Below are positions 655 to 44,165 of a stretch of 64,000 bases of DNA, piece after piece. The stretch covers positions 10,658 through 74,657 of IMG/VR virus record IMGVR_UViG_3300035698_011322; one strand, 5' to 3'. Each line of letters starts with the position of its first letter. Position 1 is the stretch's first letter. The translations under genes were made by a program, and so were the position numbers. Source of the DNA: a virus. The notes under the pieces are model-generated. The model worked only from the letters and a program-made list of their open reading frames with translations. It did not search any database and was not told the origin of the DNA.

Positions 655-1155
655 CTAAACAGTTTTAATTTCATCAAAGCCCTCTTCTTTAGTTGGTGGT
701 TGATACTTAGCCTTCATTGATTTTATAACATCATCTGGTATAACCTTGCCAGTGTCTTTTCCACGTTTGTCTAATCTCTTCTTTAACTCAGATCCACCAA
801 CTTTGAATATGATAGCTATTTTCTTATAGTCCTCTGAGGCACTCTTCATAAAATAACTTCTTTGTTTTACAGTCATATTAGTATTATCAACTATTATATT
901 TCTTCCTTTACTTAGGGCCTTGTCAAACTCTTTTCTAGTATTACCTAGAGTATTATCTCTACCCGCTTTAACAAATGCCTCTGAATATGTTATTTTATTC
1001 TTCTTCGCAATCTTCTCAACATATAAATCATTAGACACAATATTATATTTTCCCTTGAGCTTCGAGATATATGTGGACTTACCGGATGCTGGAAGGCCAA
1101 TCAGTAGTATTATTTCCTTCTGTGCCTCTTCGTTTATATAGTTGCTTAGTCTCAT
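655..1155 (-). CDS. P-loop kinase (AAA_33 / polynucleotide kinase-like)
   Basis: GLPASGKST Walker A, IIVDNTN, R..R lid, P..EEGFD C-terminus. Confidence 0.8.
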   Translation of the reverse strand: MRLSNYINEEAQKEIILLIGLPASGKSTYISKLKGKYNIVSNDLYVEKIAKKNKITYSEAFVKAGRDNTLGNTRKEFDKALSKGRNIIVDNTNMTVKQRSYFMKSASEDYKKIAIIFKVGGSELKKRLDKRGKDTGKVIPDDVIKSMKAKYQPPTKEEGFDEIKTV

Positions 1156-30770: not shown

Positions 30771-30833
30771 TTTACATTTTATCTCAAAAAAGTTATAATA
30801 AATCTTAGTCAAAGTAAGAAAGTTATATAAATA
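30771..30833 (+). promoter_or_regulatory. dual early (TTTACA-N17-TATAAT) + late (TATAAATA) promoter of tRNA array 1
   Basis: 30771-30799 and 30826-30833; paralogous to 34487-34549. Confidence 0.8.
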
Positions 30834-30941
30834 GAATTGAGGATAACGTTGAAGAATATTTTAGTCAAATATTGCAAAATCTGGATAAAGTGGACTATAA
30901 AACAAACTCCAGTATATTCTCTTCAATAAAAGGAAAATATT

Positions 30942-31064
30942 ATGTCAAGAACAACTAAAAAAACTACTACAAGGGGCAATGATTATCGATATATAGTCGA
31001 ACATCATATTTATGCAATCGTACCGACAACGCATATTATCCCAACAGAGGAACATAATATGTAA
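30942..31064 (+). CDS. attenuator leader peptide 1 (40 aa)
   Basis: MSRTTKKTTTRGNDYRYIVEHHIYAIVPTTHIIPTEEHNM; SD AAGGA; stop 3 nt before antiterminator arm. Confidence 0.75.
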   Translation: MSRTTKKTTTRGNDYRYIVEHHIYAIVPTTHIIPTEEHNM

Positions 31065-31067
31065 GTA

Positions 31068-31136
31068 TTAGCTGAAATATAAGTAATAACCTAAAGGGTT
31101 TCAGCTAAGTTAAAAGTTGAAATCCTTTTTTAGTTT
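31068..31136 (+). terminator. alternative antiterminator/terminator switch 1
   Basis: 31068-78 pairs with 31098-108; 31093-106 pairs with 31115-128, followed by a U-run. Confidence 0.8.
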
Positions 31137-31138
31137 AT

Positions 31139-31212
31139 GGTTCCATCGTCTAATGGTAGGACACCAGACTTTCGATCTGAGAATCGGGGTTCGATCCCCC
31201 GTGGAATCGCCA
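31139..31212 (+). tRNA. tRNA-Glu(TTC)
   Basis: Cloverleaf, loop CTTTCGA, GTTCGA, CCA. Confidence 0.85.
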
Positions 31213-32895: not shown

Positions 32896-32982
32896 GCTCT
32901 TGTCGCATAGTGATCGATTGCACTGGTTTCGTAATCCAGCGGAATAATTCCCACGTAGGTTTAAATCCTATCAAGGGCTCCA
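32896..32982 (+). tRNA. tRNA-Thr(CGT) with long variable arm
   Basis: GCTCTTG/CAAGGGC acceptor, loop TTCGTAA, CCA. Confidence 0.75.
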
Positions 32983-33025: not shown

Positions 33026-33727
33026 ATGAAAATTATAATAGCAGGCGATGTTCATGGTCGATTCGGTGAACTAAACACACTTATCAGTAAACAAAAACCA
33101 AATCTTGTGATCTGTTGTGGTGACTTTGGTTACTGGCCTCACTTTGGTAAAGATGAGTTTAATAAAATCAAACCACAAGGCTCAAAGATACTGTGGTGTG
33201 ATGGGAACCATGAAGATCATTGGTCTTTGAGAGACAGAAAAACCGATGAATTCGTGAAAGACGTTCATTATATGCCAAGAGGATCAACATTTACATTAAG
33301 CGATGGTCGTGTCTTACTCTTTATGGGTGGCGGAGATTCAATTGATAAAAATTCTAGAACAACTGGTGTTGATTGGTTTCCAGAAGAAGTGATTGGACAA
33401 AAAGATATTGAGAACCTTCCTGACAAGAAAATTGATATTGTTATATCTCATACTTGCCCACTTGAGCTATTAGGTGAAATGAGAGGATATCGAGAAAAAA
33501 AAGTAGAACCTTCTAATCACGCTCTTAGCTACATTTTAGAAAAATATAATCCTCGCCAATGGTTTTATGGTCACTGGCATTCATATAAAGAAGTGTTACT
33601 GAGAAGCACAAAGTTTACTGCTCTATCATGTTTGCCTACTTACATGGGTCATGGTAGATGGTGGATTGAGTTAGATGAGAAAATATCGAGTAAAATATCA
33701 ACATTTAGTTTTAATGATAATTTTTAA
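33026..33727 (+). CDS. metallophosphoesterase
   Basis: GDVHG, GDFG, DGNHE, ISHTCP, YGHWH. Confidence 0.9.
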   Translation: MKIIIAGDVHGRFGELNTLISKQKPNLVICCGDFGYWPHFGKDEFNKIKPQGSKILWCDGNHEDHWSLRDRKTDEFVKDVHYMPRGSTFTLSDGRVLLFMGGGDSIDKNSRTTGVDWFPEEVIGQKDIENLPDKKIDIVISHTCPLELLGEMRGYREKKVEPSNHALSYILEKYNPRQWFYGHWHSYKEVLLRSTKFTALSCLPTYMGHGRWWIELDEKISSKISTFSFNDNF

Positions 33728-34486: not shown

Positions 34487-34549
34487 TTTACAATTATTTC
34501 AAAAAAAGTTATAATAAATGTAATTGAAGTTGAGAAAGTTATATAAATA
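34487..34549 (+). promoter_or_regulatory. dual early + late promoter of tRNA array 2
   Basis: TTTACA 34487-92, TATAAT 34510-15, TATAAATA 34542-49. Confidence 0.8.
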
Positions 34550-34563
34550 GAAAGTAGGAGTAA

Positions 34564-34677
34564 ATGATGATGGCGAGAAAAATTAATAGGCAAAAACAGA
34601 ATAATAGATGTTTATCGACAGGCATACTTGCGTTCTCCTCATCATTTTTGAATTGGGCAGGAGATAAGTGCCTATGA
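34564..34677 (+). CDS. attenuator leader peptide 2 (up to 37 aa)
   Basis: MMMARKINRQKQNNRCLSTGILAFSSSFLNWAGDKCL; SD AGGAG; stop 2 nt before antiterminator arm. Confidence 0.75.
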   Translation: MMMARKINRQKQNNRCLSTGILAFSSSFLNWAGDKCL

Positions 34678-34679
34678 TC

Positions 34680-34751
34680 TAGCTGAAACATAAAGTAATA
34701 TTTTAAGGGGGTTTCAGCTAAAAAGTTAAAGTTGTAACCCCTTTTTAGTTT
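34680..34751 (+). terminator. alternative antiterminator/terminator switch 2
   Basis: 34680-89 pairs with 34711-20; 34705-19 pairs with 34730-44, followed by a U-run. Confidence 0.8.
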
Positions 34752-34755
34752 ATTC

Positions 34756-34830
34756 GGATATGTCGTATAAAGGGAATTATACTTGACTCTTAATCAAGAT
34801 GATGTTGGTTCAAATCAAATCGTACCATCA
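34756..34830 (+). tRNA. tRNA-Lys(CTT)-like, degenerate acceptor stem
   Basis: CTTGA-CTCTTAA-TCAAG arm and GGTTCAAATC loop; poor acceptor pairing. Confidence 0.5.
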
Positions 34831-34854
34831 AACAATAGAAAGGAAAATATTAAA

Positions 34855-35496
34855 ATGAACACATATCATAAAATCCAAACGGTATTTTTAAGAGATCCTA
34901 AAACTAAGTTCAAAACACTTTTAGAAGGTCAGTTTGCTAAATTTGAGTTTGAATATCTCGCAGAACTTATGTGGGCATGGACAGAAAAAGTTGATGGTAC
35001 TAATATTCGCGTACAGTATGATAGTGATGAAAAGAGCCTTAACTTTAATGGCAAGACAGATAGGGCTCAGTTACAGGCAACTCTTTTCGAGTACCTAACA
35101 GAAACCTTTACACCAAAGAAACAACTTTTTATGGATACATTTGATAAAGAGAATGTTAAAGTATGTTTATACGGTGAGGGTTATGGCCCCAGAATTCAAA
35201 AAGGTGGTGGCCTGTATCGTAAAGATCAGAGTTTTGTATTGTTCGATGTAAAGATCAATGATTGGTGGTTAAAACGTGGTGATGTAGAAAATATCGGACA
35301 TAAGTTTGGTATTGATGTTGTACCAATCATTCGCCATGGTAATCTTTATGAAATGGTCGAGTTTGTTAGAAATGGTTTTAATTCACAATGGGGAGATTTT
35401 CTAGCAGAAGGTATTGTTGCAAGACCATTCGTGGATTTGAGAGCAAGAAGTGGTGAAAGAATCATTACTAAACTAAAATGTAAAGATTTTGTATAA
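34855..35496 (+). CDS. RNA ligase (Rnl2-like nucleotidyltransferase)
   Basis: YHKI, TEKVDGTN, LYGEGYG, LFDV, AEGIV.RP, ITKLK. Confidence 0.85.
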   Translation: MNTYHKIQTVFLRDPKTKFKTLLEGQFAKFEFEYLAELMWAWTEKVDGTNIRVQYDSDEKSLNFNGKTDRAQLQATLFEYLTETFTPKKQLFMDTFDKENVKVCLYGEGYGPRIQKGGGLYRKDQSFVLFDVKINDWWLKRGDVENIGHKFGIDVVPIIRHGNLYEMVEFVRNGFNSQWGDFLAEGIVARPFVDLRARSGERIITKLKCKDFV

Positions 35497-35588
35497 AATG
35501 AATATTGTGGATTAGAGAAGTGGCCTATATAGGAGGGTTCGAATCCTTCAGATAGGTGGGGGTGATCGATTTCCAACCCGCCATATAA

Positions 35589-35661
35589 GGGTTTGTAGTT
35601 CAATGGTAGAACATTCGGTTCTTACCCGAAAAATTAGGTTTCGATACCTACGAACCCACCA
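35589..35661 (+). tRNA. tRNA-Lys(CTT)
   Basis: Cloverleaf, loop TTCTTAC, CCA. Confidence 0.7.
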
Positions 35662-35683
35662 TACAATAGAAAGGAGTATTAAA

Positions 35684-36382
35684 ATGGAAAAGTTAACTAA
35701 TTACCCAAAAACATATTGCCCCTTTATAAGAAAAACATTTGATGTTAATAAAGATCAATGGAAAAAATATGGTCGAAAACTTCAACTACGTGAGCCTAAT
35801 GTTTATCTTGCAGTGAATGAGATTAATCCTGGTTATGAATGGGTTCTTGATGATCCTGATACGTTTGCAGTTGAAAAACTTGATGGTACAAATGTTAAAC
35901 TCAAAACAGAAAATGGTAGATTAATTGCTCTTCAAAATAGATTGAATATCATTGATCCACTTCAAATAGTAAAAGGTAAGGCATTTATTCTCGAAGGCGT
36001 TTTTCAAGCAATTGGGAAGGGTTATGTTGAGAAAGATGGGGAACAATCAGGCGAAGTTATTGGAACAAAACTTCAAGGCAATCCATATGAACTCAATAAT
36101 ACACATCTATGGTATCCTTTTGAAAAGTCTATAAAGCATTTAAAATACAAGTCTTTTTTTAATCATGATAGAACTTTTGATAATTGGAGTTCATGGTTCA
36201 AAGATTACTTATTTTCCCTCTTTGCAATGAAAAGAGGTAACAAGGATATTATGGCAGAAGGTGTAATATTTTATAATCTAAAAAGAAAAGCCGAAGGTAA
36301 AATATATAGAGCAAAACTTAGAAGAGACATGTTTGAATGGTATTATAGTGATAAGATTGATATTTACAATTATCATGGGTAA
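35684..36382 (+). CDS. second RNA-ligase-like nucleotidyltransferase
   Basis: EKLDGTN, GEVIG.K.QGNPY, AEGVIF, AKLRRDMF. Confidence 0.75.
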   Translation: MEKLTNYPKTYCPFIRKTFDVNKDQWKKYGRKLQLREPNVYLAVNEINPGYEWVLDDPDTFAVEKLDGTNVKLKTENGRLIALQNRLNIIDPLQIVKGKAFILEGVFQAIGKGYVEKDGEQSGEVIGTKLQGNPYELNNTHLWYPFEKSIKHLKYKSFFNHDRTFDNWSSWFKDYLFSLFAMKRGNKDIMAEGVIFYNLKRKAEGKIYRAKLRRDMFEWYYSDKIDIYNYHG

Positions 36383-36402
36383 TGATATTATAAAATAAAT
36401 GA

Positions 36403-36491
36403 TGCGGGTTAGAGTAGCCAGGTCAACTCACTAGTCTCATAAGCTAGAGCTCTTAACGAGCACGGGGGTTCGAGTCCCCCACCCGCTACCA
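36403..36491 (+). tRNA. tRNA-Met(CAT), 1:72 mismatch, long variable arm
   Basis: Loop CTCATAA, T arm, CCA. Confidence 0.75.
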
Positions 36492-36724
36492 AAAAAGATA
36501 AACGAGTTTGACTCATGTTTATAGTGTTCTAGACACCATTTAAAAATAGTTGGTTTGTGCTCAAAGAATATCAATTATGGCATATTCATTGTAGTATACT
36601 GAGTGAAAGCCTCAGGACTCGTTTGTTGATAAAAAAGTAGTGAGAATGTATAATAAAGATTACGTTGTGAACACGAACGTTATGTGGTAAAACATGGTTT
36701 TGTATAGGTCCTGGAGTGCCCTAA

Positions 36725-37885: not shown

Positions 37886-37970
37886 GCACCCAGCCCTTAA
37901 TCTGAGAGGGACTCAGGCAAGTCTCCAAAGCTTGTGGCATAAAGGCGTTCAACTCGTCCTGGGTGTGCCA
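37886..37970 (+). tRNA. tRNA-Trp(CCA), atypical D region
   Basis: Loop CTCCAAA, G73-CCA. Confidence 0.65.
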
Positions 37971-40607: not shown

Positions 40608-40694
40608 GCGGTTGTAGACTAATTGATAAGTCACCAGTCTTCCAAGCTGGCGTCAGAAATGACATTGTGAGTTTGAATCTCACCAGCCGCTCCA
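40608..40694 (+). tRNA. tRNA-Gly(TCC) with long variable arm
   Basis: GCGGTTG/CAGCCGC acceptor, loop CTTCCAA, U73-CCA. Confidence 0.8.
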
Positions 40695-42320: not shown

Positions 42321-42358
42321 AAATCGGCATAGGATTTTCATTCTATGCTGATTTTTTT
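42321..42358 (+). terminator. intrinsic terminator
   Basis: AAATCGGCATAG / CTATGCTGATTT followed by a T-run. Confidence 0.75.
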
Positions 42359-42560: not shown

Positions 42561-43283
42561 ATGAGAAAAATTTTAATGAGTTTAACGATTTTAATGTTAG
42601 GAATGTTTTTAGTAGTTGGGAATGTGTCAGCGTTAGCAATTAATTCCGATTCAACAATGTCTACAGAAGGTGTGATATATAATGAATCAAATGCTGAGAC
42701 ATTGGTTTTGAATGATGTTGATCAAGCTGATATGCATGCTTATTTTATATTAGAGCTAGCAGGTTGGTCTGGTCAAAATGTATTTGGGATTTATGGTATT
42801 TCAGAAGATGGTAATGGTAATGCTCTTGCACCTAGTTCAAATCAAATGCTTTCTTTATTTGATGGCGTGGAGGGTACATATTCAGTTAGTATTAAATTTG
42901 ATCTAGTTAATGATCAAGCATGGAGAGTGGATAATCCAACAGATGTTAAAGATATAGGAATGGAATTTGGTTTGTATCTTGATTCATCAGCTACAATAAG
43001 TAATCTATCAGGTATTTTCTTTTCACAGAATGATCTTAATATTAATTCACATGACTATTTTTGGATCTATGATGTGTCTAATGGTATTTCAACAGAGATC
43101 GGTGGATATGAGACTGTTGTAGCAATGGAAGATCAATTGTTTGGTGGTGGGGATAATGATCATAATGACTTGGTTGTTGGTATTACTGATGCGTCGCCAG
43201 TACCCGAGCCAGCAACAATGCTACTATTAGGAACAGGATTGCTTGGATTTGTATCTATAGGTAGAAGAAAATTTAAAAAATAA
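42561..43283 (+). CDS. PEP-CTERM sorting-domain surface protein (DUF4114-like C-terminus)
   Basis: Signal peptide; EDQ..GGDNDHNDLVV; PVPEPATMLLLGTGLLG...RRKFKK. Confidence 0.92.
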   Translation: MRKILMSLTILMLGMFLVVGNVSALAINSDSTMSTEGVIYNESNAETLVLNDVDQADMHAYFILELAGWSGQNVFGIYGISEDGNGNALAPSSNQMLSLFDGVEGTYSVSIKFDLVNDQAWRVDNPTDVKDIGMEFGLYLDSSATISNLSGIFFSQNDLNINSHDYFWIYDVSNGISTEIGGYETVVAMEDQLFGGGDNDHNDLVVGITDASPVPEPATMLLLGTGLLGFVSIGRRKFKK

Positions 43284-43397: not shown

Positions 43398-44165
43398 ATG
43401 AATGATGAAAATATGGATAGTATTGGTGAGCCATTTGATTTTAAAAAGTACTTAGACTCGAAATATCCTTTACTGGAAGTGTTTAGAGAAAAAACACCAG
43501 GAACACATAAGCATTCACAAAATGTTGCTTTGCTGTGTGAGGCTGTTGCATTAGGTCTTGATTTGAATGTTGATGAAATGAAGGTAATTGGGTTGTATCA
43601 TGATATTGGTAAAATGAACTTCCCAGAAAATTTCTCAGAAAATCAGAATGGAACTAATGTGCATGATGGTTATGATTCTTTTGTATCATATCATCTAATA
43701 ACAAGACATATTGGTGATTCGGCTGTTATTTTATTGAATAAAACAAATTTACCTAGAGATACTATTTCAAAAATAACAGAGCATCATGGCAATACTGTTC
43801 TTCAATATTTTTATGAAAAATCTGAATCAAGTACAGAAGAATCATATAGATATAAATGTTCATCACCAAGTACCATTGAGTCAACTGTTTTAATGCTCTG
43901 TGATTCTATTGATGCTACCGCTAGAGCACTTTCTGCTGCGGGTAAATTGGGTTCAATAGAAGATAGAAAGGCTGTTGTTAGTAGTACTATAAATAGATTG
44001 ATGGATGATGATCAACTTGATGGAATGACGGTTGGTTCTATTAAAGTTATAAGAAGAGTTCTGTTACGAGAGTTAGAAACGATTTATCATAAACGTGAAG
44101 TATATGGTAACGAAAAAAAAGAAGTTAAAAATGATGATTCTGTAAGGATAGAAGATAAGGAGTAA
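43398..44165 (+). CDS. stand-alone HD phosphohydrolase (PgpH/7TM-HD-type HD domain)
   Basis: PGT.KHS.NVA, YHDIGK..P..F.ENQ, EHHG.T...YFY, LML.DS. Confidence 0.85.
   Translation: MNDENMDSIGEPFDFKKYLDSKYPLLEVFREKTPGTHKHSQNVALLCEAVALGLDLNVDEMKVIGLYHDIGKMNFPENFSENQNGTNVHDGYDSFVSYHLITRHIGDSAVILLNKTNLPRDTISKITEHHGNTVLQYFYEKSESSTEESYRYKCSSPSTIESTVLMLCDSIDATARALSAAGKLGSIEDRKAVVSSTINRLMDDDQLDGMTVGSIKVIRRVLLRELETIYHKREVYGNEKKEVKNDDSVRIEDKE

What the first reader, a model, noticed from the sequence alone, without database searches (positions are those of the whole stretch)
34564..36382. Leader 2 matches array-2 anticodons and gates two RNA ligases
The last codons TTG-AAT-TGG-GCA-GGA-GAT-AAG-TGC-CTA correspond to Leu(CAA), [Asn, not found], Trp, Ala(TGC), Gly(TCC), Asp(GTC), Lys(CTT), Cys and Leu(TAG). 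ATA, TTA, TCA, AGA, CAA and ATG also match array-2 anticodons. The first two protein genes after the switch are different KxDG nucleotidyltransferases of RNA-ligase type, and I saw no promoter between them and the switch. Inference: tRNA repair (as with T4 Rnl1/Pnk versus PrrC) is co-induced with tRNA replacement.
Basis: partly seen in the sequence, partly recalled or inferred. Interest (0 to 1): 0.85.

Follow-up and report, generated by a model that had tools for sequence, protein, structure and literature searches.

The report
Leader-peptide switch before phage tRNAs, ligases
An uncultured giant phage puts a tiny "test" gene, written in the amino acids served by the tRNA genes behind it, in front of a stop/go RNA switch, so it probably makes more spare tRNAs and two RNA-sealing enzymes only when ribosomes read those codons slowly.

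Summary
Window 34487-34755 carries a strong promoter-like site, a 37-codon ORF with a ribosome-binding site, and a stop codon 3 nt before arm A. Arm A competes with the 3' arm of an intrinsic terminator for the same 5' arm. A paralogue sits at 30771-31138. Homologous switches stand before tRNA genes in five other uncultured phage contigs, and both alternative helices covary across them (63/63 and 60/63 cells paired).

Leader 2 uses the amino acids of the tRNA array behind it and avoids those of array 1; leader 1 does the reverse (p = 1/8008 by amino-acid kind; 9e-7 by codon). The match is mainly by amino acid. The anticodon match is weaker than claimed: TTA and AAA are not read, the Trp tRNA is weak and Asn is absent here.

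Both downstream proteins are RNA-ligase-type enzymes. No promoter-like site lies between the switch and the end of the second. Ligase 1 is not conserved at this place. Internal promoters follow ligase 2. tRNA repair is inference.

Best reading: a ribosome-sensed attenuator (confidence 0.6). I found no published case for tRNA genes. Earlier unchecked notes of this scan describe the same kind on other phage DNA.

The parts
34487..34515 (+). Promoter-like site TTTACA-17-TATAAT. It is 86% identical over 51 nt to the one in front of leader 1.
34542..34549 (+). TATAAATA box (the T4 late-promoter consensus), conserved at this place in leader 1, G008 and L119. Function not shown: the box is not enriched in the window overall.
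34556..34560 (+). Shine-Dalgarno AGGAG ahead of three in-frame ATG codons.
34564..34677 (+). Leader ORF 2: 37 codons plus TGA. It holds every amino-acid kind of array 2 and no E, P, H, Y or V.
   Evidence: frame kept by in-frame indels and synonymous changes in L116, L117 and L119
34681..34689 (+). Arm A (AGCTGAAAC), 3 nt after the stop codon. It is a near-copy of the terminator 3' arm and pairs with arm B to form the antiterminator.
34705..34719 (+). Arm B, the terminator 5' arm (core GTTTCAGCT 34711-34719). It is shared by both alternative helices.
34730..34750 (+). Arm C (AGTTGTAACCCCTT) and the T-run: the intrinsic terminator.
34756..34829 (+). tRNA-like gene with anticodon CTT (Rfam 38.7 bits, several mispairs). 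It is the positional homologue of tRNA-Asn(GTT) in relatives.
34855..35496 (+). Ligase 1: 213 aa, nucleotidyltransferase domain only, motif EKVDGTN. Matches Pfam RNA_ligase.
35589..35661 (+). tRNA-Lys(CTT).
35684..36382 (+). Ligase 2: 232 aa, motif EKLDGTN. It belongs to a large conserved phage family and has the RNA-ligase fold.
36363..36391 (+). The next promoter-like site (TTTACA-17-TATTAT), at the 3' end of ligase 2. The same position is occupied in L116 and L119. It marks the end of the stretch gated by the switch alone.
30771..31138 (+). Paralogous unit 1: promoter, TATAAATA, leader ORF 30942-31064, arm A 31070-31078 and terminator 31093-31128. tRNA-Glu starts at 31139.

Best explanation
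Window 34487-34755 is a ribosome-sensed (leader-peptide) transcription attenuator.

How it would work:
- Transcripts from the promoter carry a 37-codon ORF whose stop codon lies 3 nt before arm A.
- Arm B (34711-34719) can pair either with arm A, giving the antiterminator, or with arm C, giving the terminator followed by a T-run.
- A ribosome that runs quickly to the stop codon sits on arm A. B then pairs with C, and RNA polymerase stops at about 34745-34750.
- A ribosome delayed at any codon more than about 4 codons before the stop leaves arm A free. A pairs with B as soon as B is made, and transcription runs on.
- Read-through transcription enters a tRNA-like gene, ligase 1, tRNA-Lys(CTT) and ligase 2, and then the rest of array 2, which also has promoter-like sites of its own.

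What it senses: the leader is written in the amino acids whose tRNAs lie in array 2, while the paralogous leader 1 is written in those of array 1. The delay therefore most likely reports a shortage of those tRNA species, giving feedback control of spare-tRNA supply.

The ligases: both ligase genes ride in the only stretch that this switch gates alone. Sealing broken tRNA is their most likely job, but that step is inference.

Shown: the anatomy, the covariation, the composition statistics, the fold and family of the ligases, and the absence of promoter-like sites.
Inferred: that the leader is translated, that the ribosome occludes arm A, the nature of the signal, and the ligase substrate.
For: 1. 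The unit occurs twice in the contig. Promoter and switch are conserved but the ORFs are unrelated.
2. A strict detector asks for a terminator, a copy of its 3' arm upstream and an ORF of at least 15 codons ending at that copy. It found only these two units and five homologues (G008/L081, G007/L113, L116, L117, L119). Every one is on the tRNA strand, and five of the seven have an ARAGORN-called tRNA starting within 60 nt of the terminator; WIN L2 is followed after 11 nt by a tRNA-like gene that only Rfam calls, and in G008 the first called tRNA starts 96 nt on. There was no other hit in about 1.1 Mb on both strands.
3. Over the seven units the A:B helix is paired in 63/63 cells and B:C in 60/63. 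Changes on both sides occur at 5 and 4 of 9 positions; for example G-C becomes A-T in all three arms of L119.
4. Transcripts cut before arm C fold into A:B at -9 to -17.6 kcal/mol; full-length ones fold into the terminator.
5. The stop codon lies 1-7 nt before arm A in every unit.
6. The frame is kept by 3- and 6-nt indels and by synonymous changes (GCG/GCC/GCA, GGA/GGG, TTA/TTG) among the L2-type leaders.
7. Codon counts: L2 has 22/36 codons read by array 2 and 1 by array 1; L1 has 19/39 read by array 1. Fisher p = 9e-7. No 36-codon window in the phage's genes is as extreme.
8. By amino-acid kind, the six array-1-only kinds are exactly the six that are commoner in L1 than in L2 (p = 1/8008).
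9. The L2-type leaders of the window, L119 and L117 each hold all 14 amino-acid kinds of the array-2 set plus one other kind. For the window and L119, which hold a single other residue, the simulated joint P is 2e-5 to 3e-5; L117 holds three Thr, so its simulated figure does not apply.
10. Ligase 1 matches PF09414 at E 1.2e-14 and the Rnl2 model at 4e-9.
11. The ligase 2 model (pLDDT 84) gives Z 11.6 to NgrRnl, 10.9 to T4 Rnl2 and 10.6 to C12orf29, against 8.1 or less for DNA ligases. Its motif-I lysine is invariant.
12. There is no promoter-like site between switch and ligase 2 in the window, L116, L117 or L119.
Against: - There is no expression data.
- No 'protector' hairpin (the 1:2 helix of trp) was found, so an untranslated leader would read through by default.
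- Most of the signal is at the amino-acid level. Synonymous choice adds only p 0.04, and Ala, Gly and Leu codons drift among relatives. Sensing of specific anticodons is therefore not shown.
- Each amino acid occurs only 1-4 times, unlike the codon runs of his or trp leaders.
- In relatives with near-complete arrays the leader is not enriched over background (G008 P 0.8, G007 P 0.12).
- Lys, the only tRNA identity gated solely by this switch, is not enriched in leader 2.
- Promoter-like sites at 36363, 36626, 38311 and 40877 would feed most of array 2 independently.
- The motif [IL]NW[AS][GD], conserved 5-9 residues before the stop, hints that the peptide sequence itself matters.
- Ligase 1 is absent from this place in all relatives.
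- G008 has strong promoter-like sites between its switch and ligase 2.
Confidence: 0.6

Rival explanations
1. The switch is real but is a general translation-capacity sensor. Any slowing of ribosomes (host shut-off, ribosome-targeting defence, starvation) causes read-through. The leader is simply a broad sample of codons, not tuned to the tRNAs downstream.
For: The leaders of G008 and G007 use 19 and 17 amino-acid kinds and are not enriched for downstream tRNA codons. Synonymous codons drift among relatives. The published whiB7 uORF attenuator responds to many kinds of stalling (PMC10274678).
Against: The two leaders in one genome divide the amino-acid alphabet along the line between the two arrays (p 1/8008 and 9e-7). 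A general sensor does not need this division.
Confidence: 0.17
2. The leader encodes an arrest peptide. The conserved [IL]NW[AS][GD] block acts in the ribosome tunnel and stalls or releases the ribosome in response to a ligand or factor, as TnaC or SecM do. Amino-acid content reflects that function.
For: The block is conserved at the protein level, with synonymous changes, 5-9 residues before the stop in the window's L2, L116, L117, L119, L180 and in looser form G007. Flanking residues vary.
Against: Leader 1 and G008 lack the motif yet share the switch. The motif does not explain the absence of E, P, H, Y and V along the whole leader, or the mirror composition of leader 1.
Confidence: 0.08
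3. There is no sensing. A leaky terminator sets a fixed level of transcription into the tRNA and ligase genes, or separates early from late transcripts. The ORF is a small protein gene or a chance frame, and A:B is a processing or stability hairpin.
For: No expression data exist. Both an early-type and a TATAAATA site precede the leader. A TATAAATA-initiated RNA would start in or next to the Shine-Dalgarno sequence of leader 2, which by itself could make late transcripts read through (inference from T4 late start sites).
Against: Arm A covaries with B and C in seven units. The stop codon always abuts arm A. The frame is kept through indels. The composition is non-random.
Confidence: 0.08
4. 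The ligases are not tRNA-repair enzymes. They act on other RNA, for example in phage tRNA maturation or in sealing nicked duplex RNA or DNA-RNA hybrids, and lie among tRNA genes only because this region collects small accessory genes.
For: Both resemble the nick-sealing Rnl2 and Rnl5 clades rather than Rnl1. No Pnkp lies in the unit. Ligase 1 relatives elsewhere have no tRNA genes within 10 kb. Only 21 of 80 ligase 2 loci have a tRNA within 500 nt.
Against: Ligase 2 sits inside tRNA arrays in the window, G006, G007, G008 and L116-L123. The RLIG1/C12orf29 relatives ligate tRNA in vitro (PMC11494293, abstract). A metallophosphoesterase and a Pnk-like kinase are encoded on the contig.
Confidence: 0.4

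Closest known systems
Leader-peptide transcription attenuators of amino-acid operons (trpL, hisL, leuL, pheL; multivalent thrL and ilvL) - textbook knowledge
   Same: A short translated ORF sits in the 5' leader, with mutually exclusive antiterminator and terminator helices. The position of the ribosome chooses between them, and the leader codons relate to the product being controlled.
   Different: The genes controlled are tRNA genes and RNA ligases of a phage, not biosynthetic enzymes. There are only two competing helices: arm A abuts the stop codon and no 1:2 protector hairpin exists, so no translation should give read-through. The leader samples 14-15 amino-acid kinds once to four times each, instead of runs of one or a few.
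whiB7 uORF attenuator of mycobacteria (PMC10274678) and antibiotic-responsive ribosome-mediated attenuators
   Same: Stalling in a uORF leads to antitermination. The amino-acid content of the uORF decides which shortages are sensed. It responds to loss of tRNAs and tRNA synthetases.
   Different: That system is cellular and controls a transcription factor. Its uORF is Ala-rich rather than a near-complete sample of a tRNA set.
Anabaena trn L-array with rtcB, induced under translational stress (PMC8421152; repressor TrcR, PMC10272220)
   Same: A spare tRNA array and an RNA ligase thought to repair tRNA are switched on together when translation is impaired. This is the nearest published parallel to the 'replace and repair' idea.
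   Different: Control there is by a repressor binding direct repeats at the promoters, not by attenuation. The ligase is RtcB, not an ATP-dependent KxDG ligase. The array is bacterial and plasmid-borne, not phage.
T4 Rnl1 plus Pnkp repair of PrrC-cleaved tRNA-Lys (established knowledge)
   Same: A phage-encoded ATP-dependent RNA ligase linked to tRNA.
   Different: The ligases here group with Rnl2, Rnl5 and RLIG1, not Rnl1. There is no bifunctional Pnkp in the unit, and no attenuator is known for the T4 genes.
T-box riboswitches
   Same: Transcription antitermination that reports the state of a tRNA.
   Different: T-boxes bind uncharged tRNA directly and need no ORF. No T-box or other Rfam cis-regulator matches here.

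Membership tests
Ribosome-mediated (leader-peptide) transcription attenuator | A short ORF with a ribosome-binding site between the promoter and the regulated genes | tested here: met
   There are 37 codons, with AGGAG 3-9 nt before the three ATG codons. The ORF is kept in relatives through in-frame indels.
Ribosome-mediated (leader-peptide) transcription attenuator | An intrinsic terminator upstream of the regulated genes | tested here: met
   Stem 34705-34744 plus a T-run. The paralogue was called by the terminator scan.
Ribosome-mediated (leader-peptide) transcription attenuator | An antiterminator helix mutually exclusive with the terminator, supported by covariation | tested here: met
   A:B is paired in 63/63 cells with double-sided changes at 5 of 9 positions. 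B:C is paired in 60/63 cells with changes at 4 of 9 positions.
Ribosome-mediated (leader-peptide) transcription attenuator | ORF placed so that ribosome position decides which helix forms | tested here: met
   The stop codon lies 1-7 nt before arm A in all seven units. The occlusion itself is inferred from the known ribosome footprint.
Ribosome-mediated (leader-peptide) transcription attenuator | Regulatory codons correspond to the controlled product | tested here: met
   This holds at the amino-acid level (p 1/8008; Fisher 9e-7) and only weakly at the synonymous-codon level (p 0.04). It is not significant in relatives with near-complete arrays.
Ribosome-mediated (leader-peptide) transcription attenuator | Termination depends on translation of the leader | not testable with these tools
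   This needs a reporter, in vitro transcription-translation or 3'-end mapping.
ATP-dependent RNA ligase, Rnl2/Rnl5-like (Pfam PF09414) | Profile match above the curated cut-off | tested here: met
   Ligase 1 scores 55.3 bits against a cut-off of 27. Ligase 2 scores only 16.3 bits, below the cut-off, but some family members carry PF09414 in precomputed annotation.
ATP-dependent RNA ligase, Rnl2/Rnl5-like (Pfam PF09414) | Motif I KxDG with a conserved lysine nucleophile | tested here: met
   EKVDGTN in ligase 1. EKLDGTN in ligase 2, with K65, G68 and N70 invariant in 25 sequences.
ATP-dependent RNA ligase, Rnl2/Rnl5-like (Pfam PF09414) | Adenylyltransferase fold closest to RNA ligases | tested here: met
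   For the ligase 2 model: NgrRnl Z 11.6 (rmsd 3.7, 166 aligned), T4 Rnl2 Z 10.9, C12orf29 Z 10.6, DNA ligases Z 8.1 or less. Ligase 1 was not folded.
ATP-dependent RNA ligase, Rnl2/Rnl5-like (Pfam PF09414) | RNA-sealing activity | not testable with these tools
   This needs a biochemical assay.
T4-type tRNA repair pathway (Rnl1 + Pnkp) | Rnl1-family ligase | tested here: not met
   The Pfam scan at E<=0.1 gave no Rnl1-family match for either protein. For ligase 2, T4 Rnl1 gives Z 8.8, below Rnl5 and Rnl2.
T4-type tRNA repair pathway (Rnl1 + Pnkp) | Polynucleotide kinase-phosphatase co-encoded with the ligase | tested here: not met
   No kinase lies in either array. A Pnk-like AAA_33 kinase is at 655-1155 on the minus strand. 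A metallophosphoesterase is at 33026-33727 in array 1.
T-box riboswitch | Match to the Rfam T-box model | tested here: not met
   Only tRNA-type matches appear in the region, even at E<=5.

The most novel reading that the evidence does not exclude
The phage carries two sub-functionalised, amino-acid-resolved sensors of the tRNA pool. Each leader is a near-complete list of the amino acids served by its own tRNA array. A shortage of exactly those tRNAs, from host anticodon nucleases, host tRNA decay or the phage's own demand, opens transcription of the replacements. For leader 2 it also opens transcription of two RNA ligases that reseal the cleaved tRNAs. This would be a self-correcting 'replace and repair' circuit not described for any tRNA gene.
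Probability: 0.4. Interest if true: 0.9.

Novelty: new variant of a known kind. Interest (0 to 1): 0.76.

Why it matters
tRNA genes are thought to be controlled at promoters, and phage tRNA arrays are usually treated as constitutive cargo. A translated sensor wired to a terminator would mean that the phage measures decoding speed and adjusts its own tRNA supply.

This bears directly on the current debate over why large phages carry tRNAs: codon-usage matching, replacing degraded host tRNAs, or escaping anticodon nucleases. It also gives a compact part of about 270 nt that can be tested in vitro.

The link to RNA ligases suggests that repair and replacement are coupled, as proposed for the Anabaena trn and rtcB genes. 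Here the route would be RNA-based.

Tried and rejected
- **Exact-pattern scan.** AGCTGAAA..TTTCAGCTAA in viral contigs gave 59 loci, all chance matches inside genes.
- **Ligase 1 relatives.** Loci L063-L069 have no tRNA within 10 kb. Two of their records hold large tRNA arrays elsewhere; the 3-kb stretches fetched from those arrays (L070-L079) gave no hit with the strict detector.
- **tRNA-Glu search.** A 24-mer of tRNA-Glu, meant to find leader-1-type relatives, gave 0 hits.
- **RNA data.** No RNA holder is listed for the stretch. The only holders are DNA runs labelled salt lake metagenome.
- **Alignment.** MAFFT put the diverged arms of G007 and G008 one column out of register. Pair counts were therefore made on arms placed by their own pairing rather than with the count of structure pairs.
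- **Hairpin in the leader.** A hairpin UGGGCA/UGCCUA inside the last nine codons could have explained those codons, but it is not kept in L116, L117 or L119. Rejected.
- **Protector helix.** No segment of the leader complementary to arm A was seen by eye.
- **Small membrane peptide.** The C-terminal half of leader 2 is only moderately hydrophobic, and leader 1, G007 and G008 are not hydrophobic. Not pursued.
- **Stretch 35497-35588.** It has a T-arm-like GGAGGGTTCGAATCCTTC, but its fold is no better than shuffles (z -0.35) and it has no tRNA call.
- **Relaxed detector.** Relaxed settings gave scattered weak hits without tRNAs, taken as false, plus one looser homologue, L180.
Full report
**Context.** The window is bases 10658-74657 of a 74.7-kb uncultured-virus contig estimated 31% complete. 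Its gp32-like protein is only about 28% identical to those of T4-like cyanophages, and no cultured phage matches the region at the DNA level. The only sequencing runs that hold the stretch are DNA runs labelled salt lake metagenome. Between about 31.1 and 41.8 kb the + strand carries some two dozen tRNA genes interleaved with small protein genes.

**The observation.** ARAGORN or Rfam call tRNAs with anticodons CAA, TGC, TCC, GTC, CTT, GCA, TAG, TAT, TGA, TCT, TTG and CAT downstream.

Four details fail or are weak:
- No tRNA reads TTA.
- Anticodon CTT does not read the two AAA codons.
- tRNA-Trp (37893-37970) appears only at a relaxed threshold.
- There is no tRNA-Asn.

The tRNA-like gene that starts 11 nt after the terminator (34756-34829, Rfam 38.7 bits) aligns with tRNA-Asn(GTT) of three relatives but has CTT in the anticodon loop.

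With standard wobble rules, 22 of 36 leader codons are read by array-2 tRNAs against 35.5% in the phage's genes (p 1.5e-3). Eight of the last nine are read (p 1.6e-3). Only one codon is read by an array-1 tRNA, and no 36-codon window in the phage's own genes is as extreme on both counts.

**The switch.** The stop codon TGA (34675-34677) is followed after 3 nt by AGCTGAAAC (arm A). Arm A is complementary to GTTTCAGCT (arm B, 34711-34719). Arm B is also the 5' arm of a terminator whose 3' arm (arm C, 34730-34744) is a near-copy of A and is followed by a T-run.

A paralogue lies at 30771-31138. Its promoter (TTTACA-17-TATAAT), the TATAAATA box and the A/B/C region are 81-86% identical to unit 2, while the ORF between them is unrelated. 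tRNA-Glu starts right after its T-run.

**Relatives.** Exact-pattern searches found nothing. Loci fetched around homologues of ligase 2 did.

I wrote a strict detector that asks for three things: a terminator, a copy of its 3' arm of at least 8 nt within 60 nt upstream, and an ATG-ORF of at least 15 codons ending at that copy. It found the two window units and five more: G008 (L081 2252-2433), G007 (L113, reverse strand), L116, L117 and L119. Nothing else turned up in about 1.1 Mb on both strands. Every hit is on the tRNA strand. Five of the seven have an ARAGORN-called tRNA starting within 60 nt of the terminator. Leader 2 of the window is followed after 11 nt by a tRNA-like gene that only Rfam calls, and in G008 the first called tRNA starts 96 nt on.

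The arms differ between lineages but stay complementary:

| Unit(s) | Arm A | Arm B | Arm C |
|---|---|---|---|
| Window L2, L116 (L1 and L117 differ at one or two bases) | AGCTGAAAC | GTTTCAGCT | AGTTGAAAC (L116; AGTTGTAAC in L2) |
| L119 | AGCTAAAAC | GTTTTAGCT | AGTTAAAAT |
| G008 | AGTAAGAAC | GTTCTTACT | AGTAAGAAC |
| G007 | GGTAGAAAC | GTTTCTACC | GTAGAAAC |

A:B is paired in 63/63 cells, with double-sided changes at five of nine positions. B:C is paired in 60/63 cells, with changes at four positions. Transcripts cut before arm C fold into A:B at -9 to -17.6 kcal/mol, and full-length ones fold into the terminator. The stop codon lies 1-7 nt before arm A in all seven units.

**Is the ORF translated?** Among the L2-type leaders the frame survives 3- and 6-nt indels, and several changes are synonymous: GCG/GCC/GCA, GGA/GGG, TTA/TTG, AAG/AAA. 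This points to translation and to selection on amino-acid identity.

**Leader against array.**
- Leader 2 has no E, P, H, Y or V. Codons 17-38 of leader 1 are only Y, I, V, E, H, P and T plus one Ala.
- Array 1 encodes Glu, Pro, His, Thr, Ile and Val, plus weak Tyr and Arg(TCG).
- Array 2 encodes Lys, Met, Arg, Asp, Ser, Ala, Cys, Leu, Gly, Gln and Ile, plus weak Trp.
- Codon counts give Fisher p 9e-7.
- Treating amino-acid kinds as the units, the six array-1-only kinds are exactly the six that are commoner in leader 1 than in leader 2. That is 1 of 8008 partitions, or 1 of 2002 with confident tRNAs only.
- In relatives the L2-type array also holds Asn(GTT) and Phe(GAA). With these the array-2 set has 14 kinds. 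The L2-type leaders of the window, L119 and L117 each contain all 14 plus one other kind. For the window and L119, which hold a single other residue, the simulated joint P is 2e-5 to 3e-5. L117 holds three Thr, so its simulated figure does not apply.

Limits:
- Given the peptide, synonymous choice favours cognate codons only mildly (p 0.04 for each leader).
- In G008 and G007, whose arrays cover almost every amino acid, the leaders (19 and 17 kinds) are not enriched over background (two further G008 tRNAs were found).
- The set of 14 kinds was defined after seeing the data.

**The ligases.**
- Ligase 1 (34855-35496, 213 aa, EKVDGTN) matches Pfam RNA_ligase at 1.2e-14, PHROG 548 'RNA ligase' and the NCBIfam Rnl2 model at 4e-9. 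It also shows weak sequence similarity to T4 Rnl2.
- Ligase 2 (35684-36382, 232 aa, EKLDGTN) scores below the Pfam cut-off. It belongs to a family of more than 1200 proteins 67-85% identical to it, some annotated with PF09414.
- Its AlphaFold model (pLDDT 84) is closest to Naegleria RNA ligase (Z 11.6), T4 Rnl2 (Z 10.9), a viral C12orf29/RLIG1 ligase (Z 10.6) and REL1 (Z 10.0). T4 Rnl1 gives Z 8.8 and DNA ligases 8.1 or less.
- Both are thus RNA-ligase-type enzymes, but not of the Rnl1 kind.
- Ligase 2 lies among tRNA genes in many relatives. A tRNA lies within 500 nt in 21 of 80 metagenome loci, many of them short.
- Ligase 1 has no homologue in any of these loci, and its own relatives have no tRNAs nearby.

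**Gating.** On the + strand there is no promoter-like site of 10/12 or better and no TATAAATA between the terminator and 36363. At 36363 a TTTACA-17-TATTAT site overlaps the end of ligase 2. L116 and L119 show the same layout, with the next promoter-like site at the 3' end of ligase 2; L117 has no promoter-like site before ligase 2 either, and none was found at its end. L116 also has a TATAAATA after its first tRNA, and G008 has strong promoter-like sites in between.

Further promoter-like sites at 36626, 38311 and 40877 precede most of array 2. No terminator-like site was called on the + strand from the end of the switch to 42321, apart from one short stem inside the 143-aa ORF (37889-37906). 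The switch alone therefore controls the tRNA-like gene, ligase 1, tRNA-Lys(CTT) and ligase 2. It adds to the transcription of the rest.

**Repair pathway.** No kinase is in the arrays. A metallophosphoesterase lies in array 1 (33026-33727). A 166-aa AAA_33 protein resembling the kinase domains of polynucleotide kinases lies at 655-1155 on the other strand. The parts of a heal-and-seal route may thus exist, but they are not co-regulated by this switch.

**Mechanism and rivals.** The best reading is a two-helix ribosome-sensed attenuator. A ribosome at the stop codon covers arm A, so B pairs with C and transcription ends. A delayed ribosome leaves A free and transcription continues.

The partition of amino acids between the two leaders argues that the delay reports the tRNAs of the array behind each. 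The weak codon-level signal and the near-complete leaders of relatives keep a general translation-stress sensor in play.

A conserved [IL]NW[AS][GD] block 5-9 residues before the stop keeps an arrest-peptide reading alive. A fixed leaky terminator is unlikely given the three-way covariation and the conserved position of the stop codon.

**Known systems.** I found no paper describing leader-peptide attenuation of tRNA genes. The nearest in print are:
- the amino-acid operon attenuators;
- the whiB7 uORF attenuator (PMC10274678);
- for the 'replace and repair' logic, the Anabaena trn array, which is co-induced with rtcB under translational stress through promoter repeats and the repressor TrcR (PMC8421152 and PMC10272220).

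Earlier unchecked notes of this scan describe the same kind of switch on other phage DNA and on this genome.

**Verdict.** The switch and its composition match are real and well supported by comparison. The ligase identities are supported. Gating of the ligases follows from anatomy only, and tRNA repair is inference.

Noticed in passing
window 36403-36491, 40608-40694, 32896-32982; also L081 4976-5066 and 5193-5284: Several tRNAs that are not Leu, Ser or Tyr have long variable arms and encoded CCA ends: Met(CAT) 89 nt, Gly(TCC) 87 nt and Thr(CGT) 87 nt here, and Lys(TTT) 91 nt and Ile(TAT) 92 nt in a relative. This is unusual for these identities and recurs across the phage group.
   Followed up: partly
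window 34756-34829: The first gene after the switch is a low-GC tRNA-like sequence with several mispairs and anticodon CTT. Its positional homologues in L116, L117 and L119 are tRNA-Asn(GTT). It is either a decaying gene or a tRNA with a changed anticodon.
   Followed up: partly
window 34645-34662 and homologous leaders in L116, L117, L119, L180 and L113: A peptide block [IL]-N-W-[AS]-[GD] is conserved 5-9 residues before the leader stop, with synonymous changes, while flanking residues vary. Unexplained; it may be an arrest motif or a set of key sensing codons.
   Followed up: partly
L180 2180-2533: A looser homologue of the switch. A 98-codon ORF ends ...HINWADKGNTM, its stop codon lies inside arm A, and a terminator and tRNA-Pro(TGG) follow. 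Here ligase 2 (781-1482) lies upstream of the switch.
   Followed up: partly
window 30800-30941: Unit 1 has a 140-nt insert relative to unit 2. It holds a TTG-initiated 26-codon frame (30849-30929) behind a GAGGA site, ahead of the real leader 1. G008 likewise has a 15-codon mini-ORF before its leader.
   Followed up: no
window 34542-34560: TATAAATA ends 6 nt before the Shine-Dalgarno sequence of leader 2 (the same layout is seen in L119). If it is a T4-type late promoter, late transcripts would start in or next to the ribosome-binding site, and the untranslated leader might read through by default.
   Followed up: no
window 34564-34573 with 34636-34645: In the minimum-energy fold the start-codon run AUGAUGAUGG pairs with CCUCAUCAU inside the leader. 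This could limit initiation. It is not obviously kept in relatives.
   Followed up: no
window 35497-35588: The spacer between ligase 1 and tRNA-Lys contains a T-arm-like GGAGGGTTCGAATCCTTC, but there is no tRNA call and the fold is no better than shuffles. It may be a tRNA remnant.
   Followed up: partly
window 655-1155 (-) and 33026-33727 (+): A 166-aa P-loop kinase resembles polynucleotide kinase domains (PNK-3'Pase model E 8.5e-13). A calcineurin-type metallophosphoesterase is also present. Both are candidate RNA end-healing enzymes, encoded apart from the ligases.
   Followed up: partly
window 42561-43283 and 43398-44165: Just past the terminator that closes array 2 (42321-42354) lie a protein with DUF4114 and a PEP-CTERM motif, and an HD-domain protein.
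   Followed up: no
L179 5715-7077, L173 429-1791, L146 184-924: In more distant relatives a tRNA-Tyr(GTA) is followed directly by a homologue of the metallophosphoesterase (46-49% identity), so this enzyme too is a recurrent resident of the tRNA arrays.
   Followed up: no
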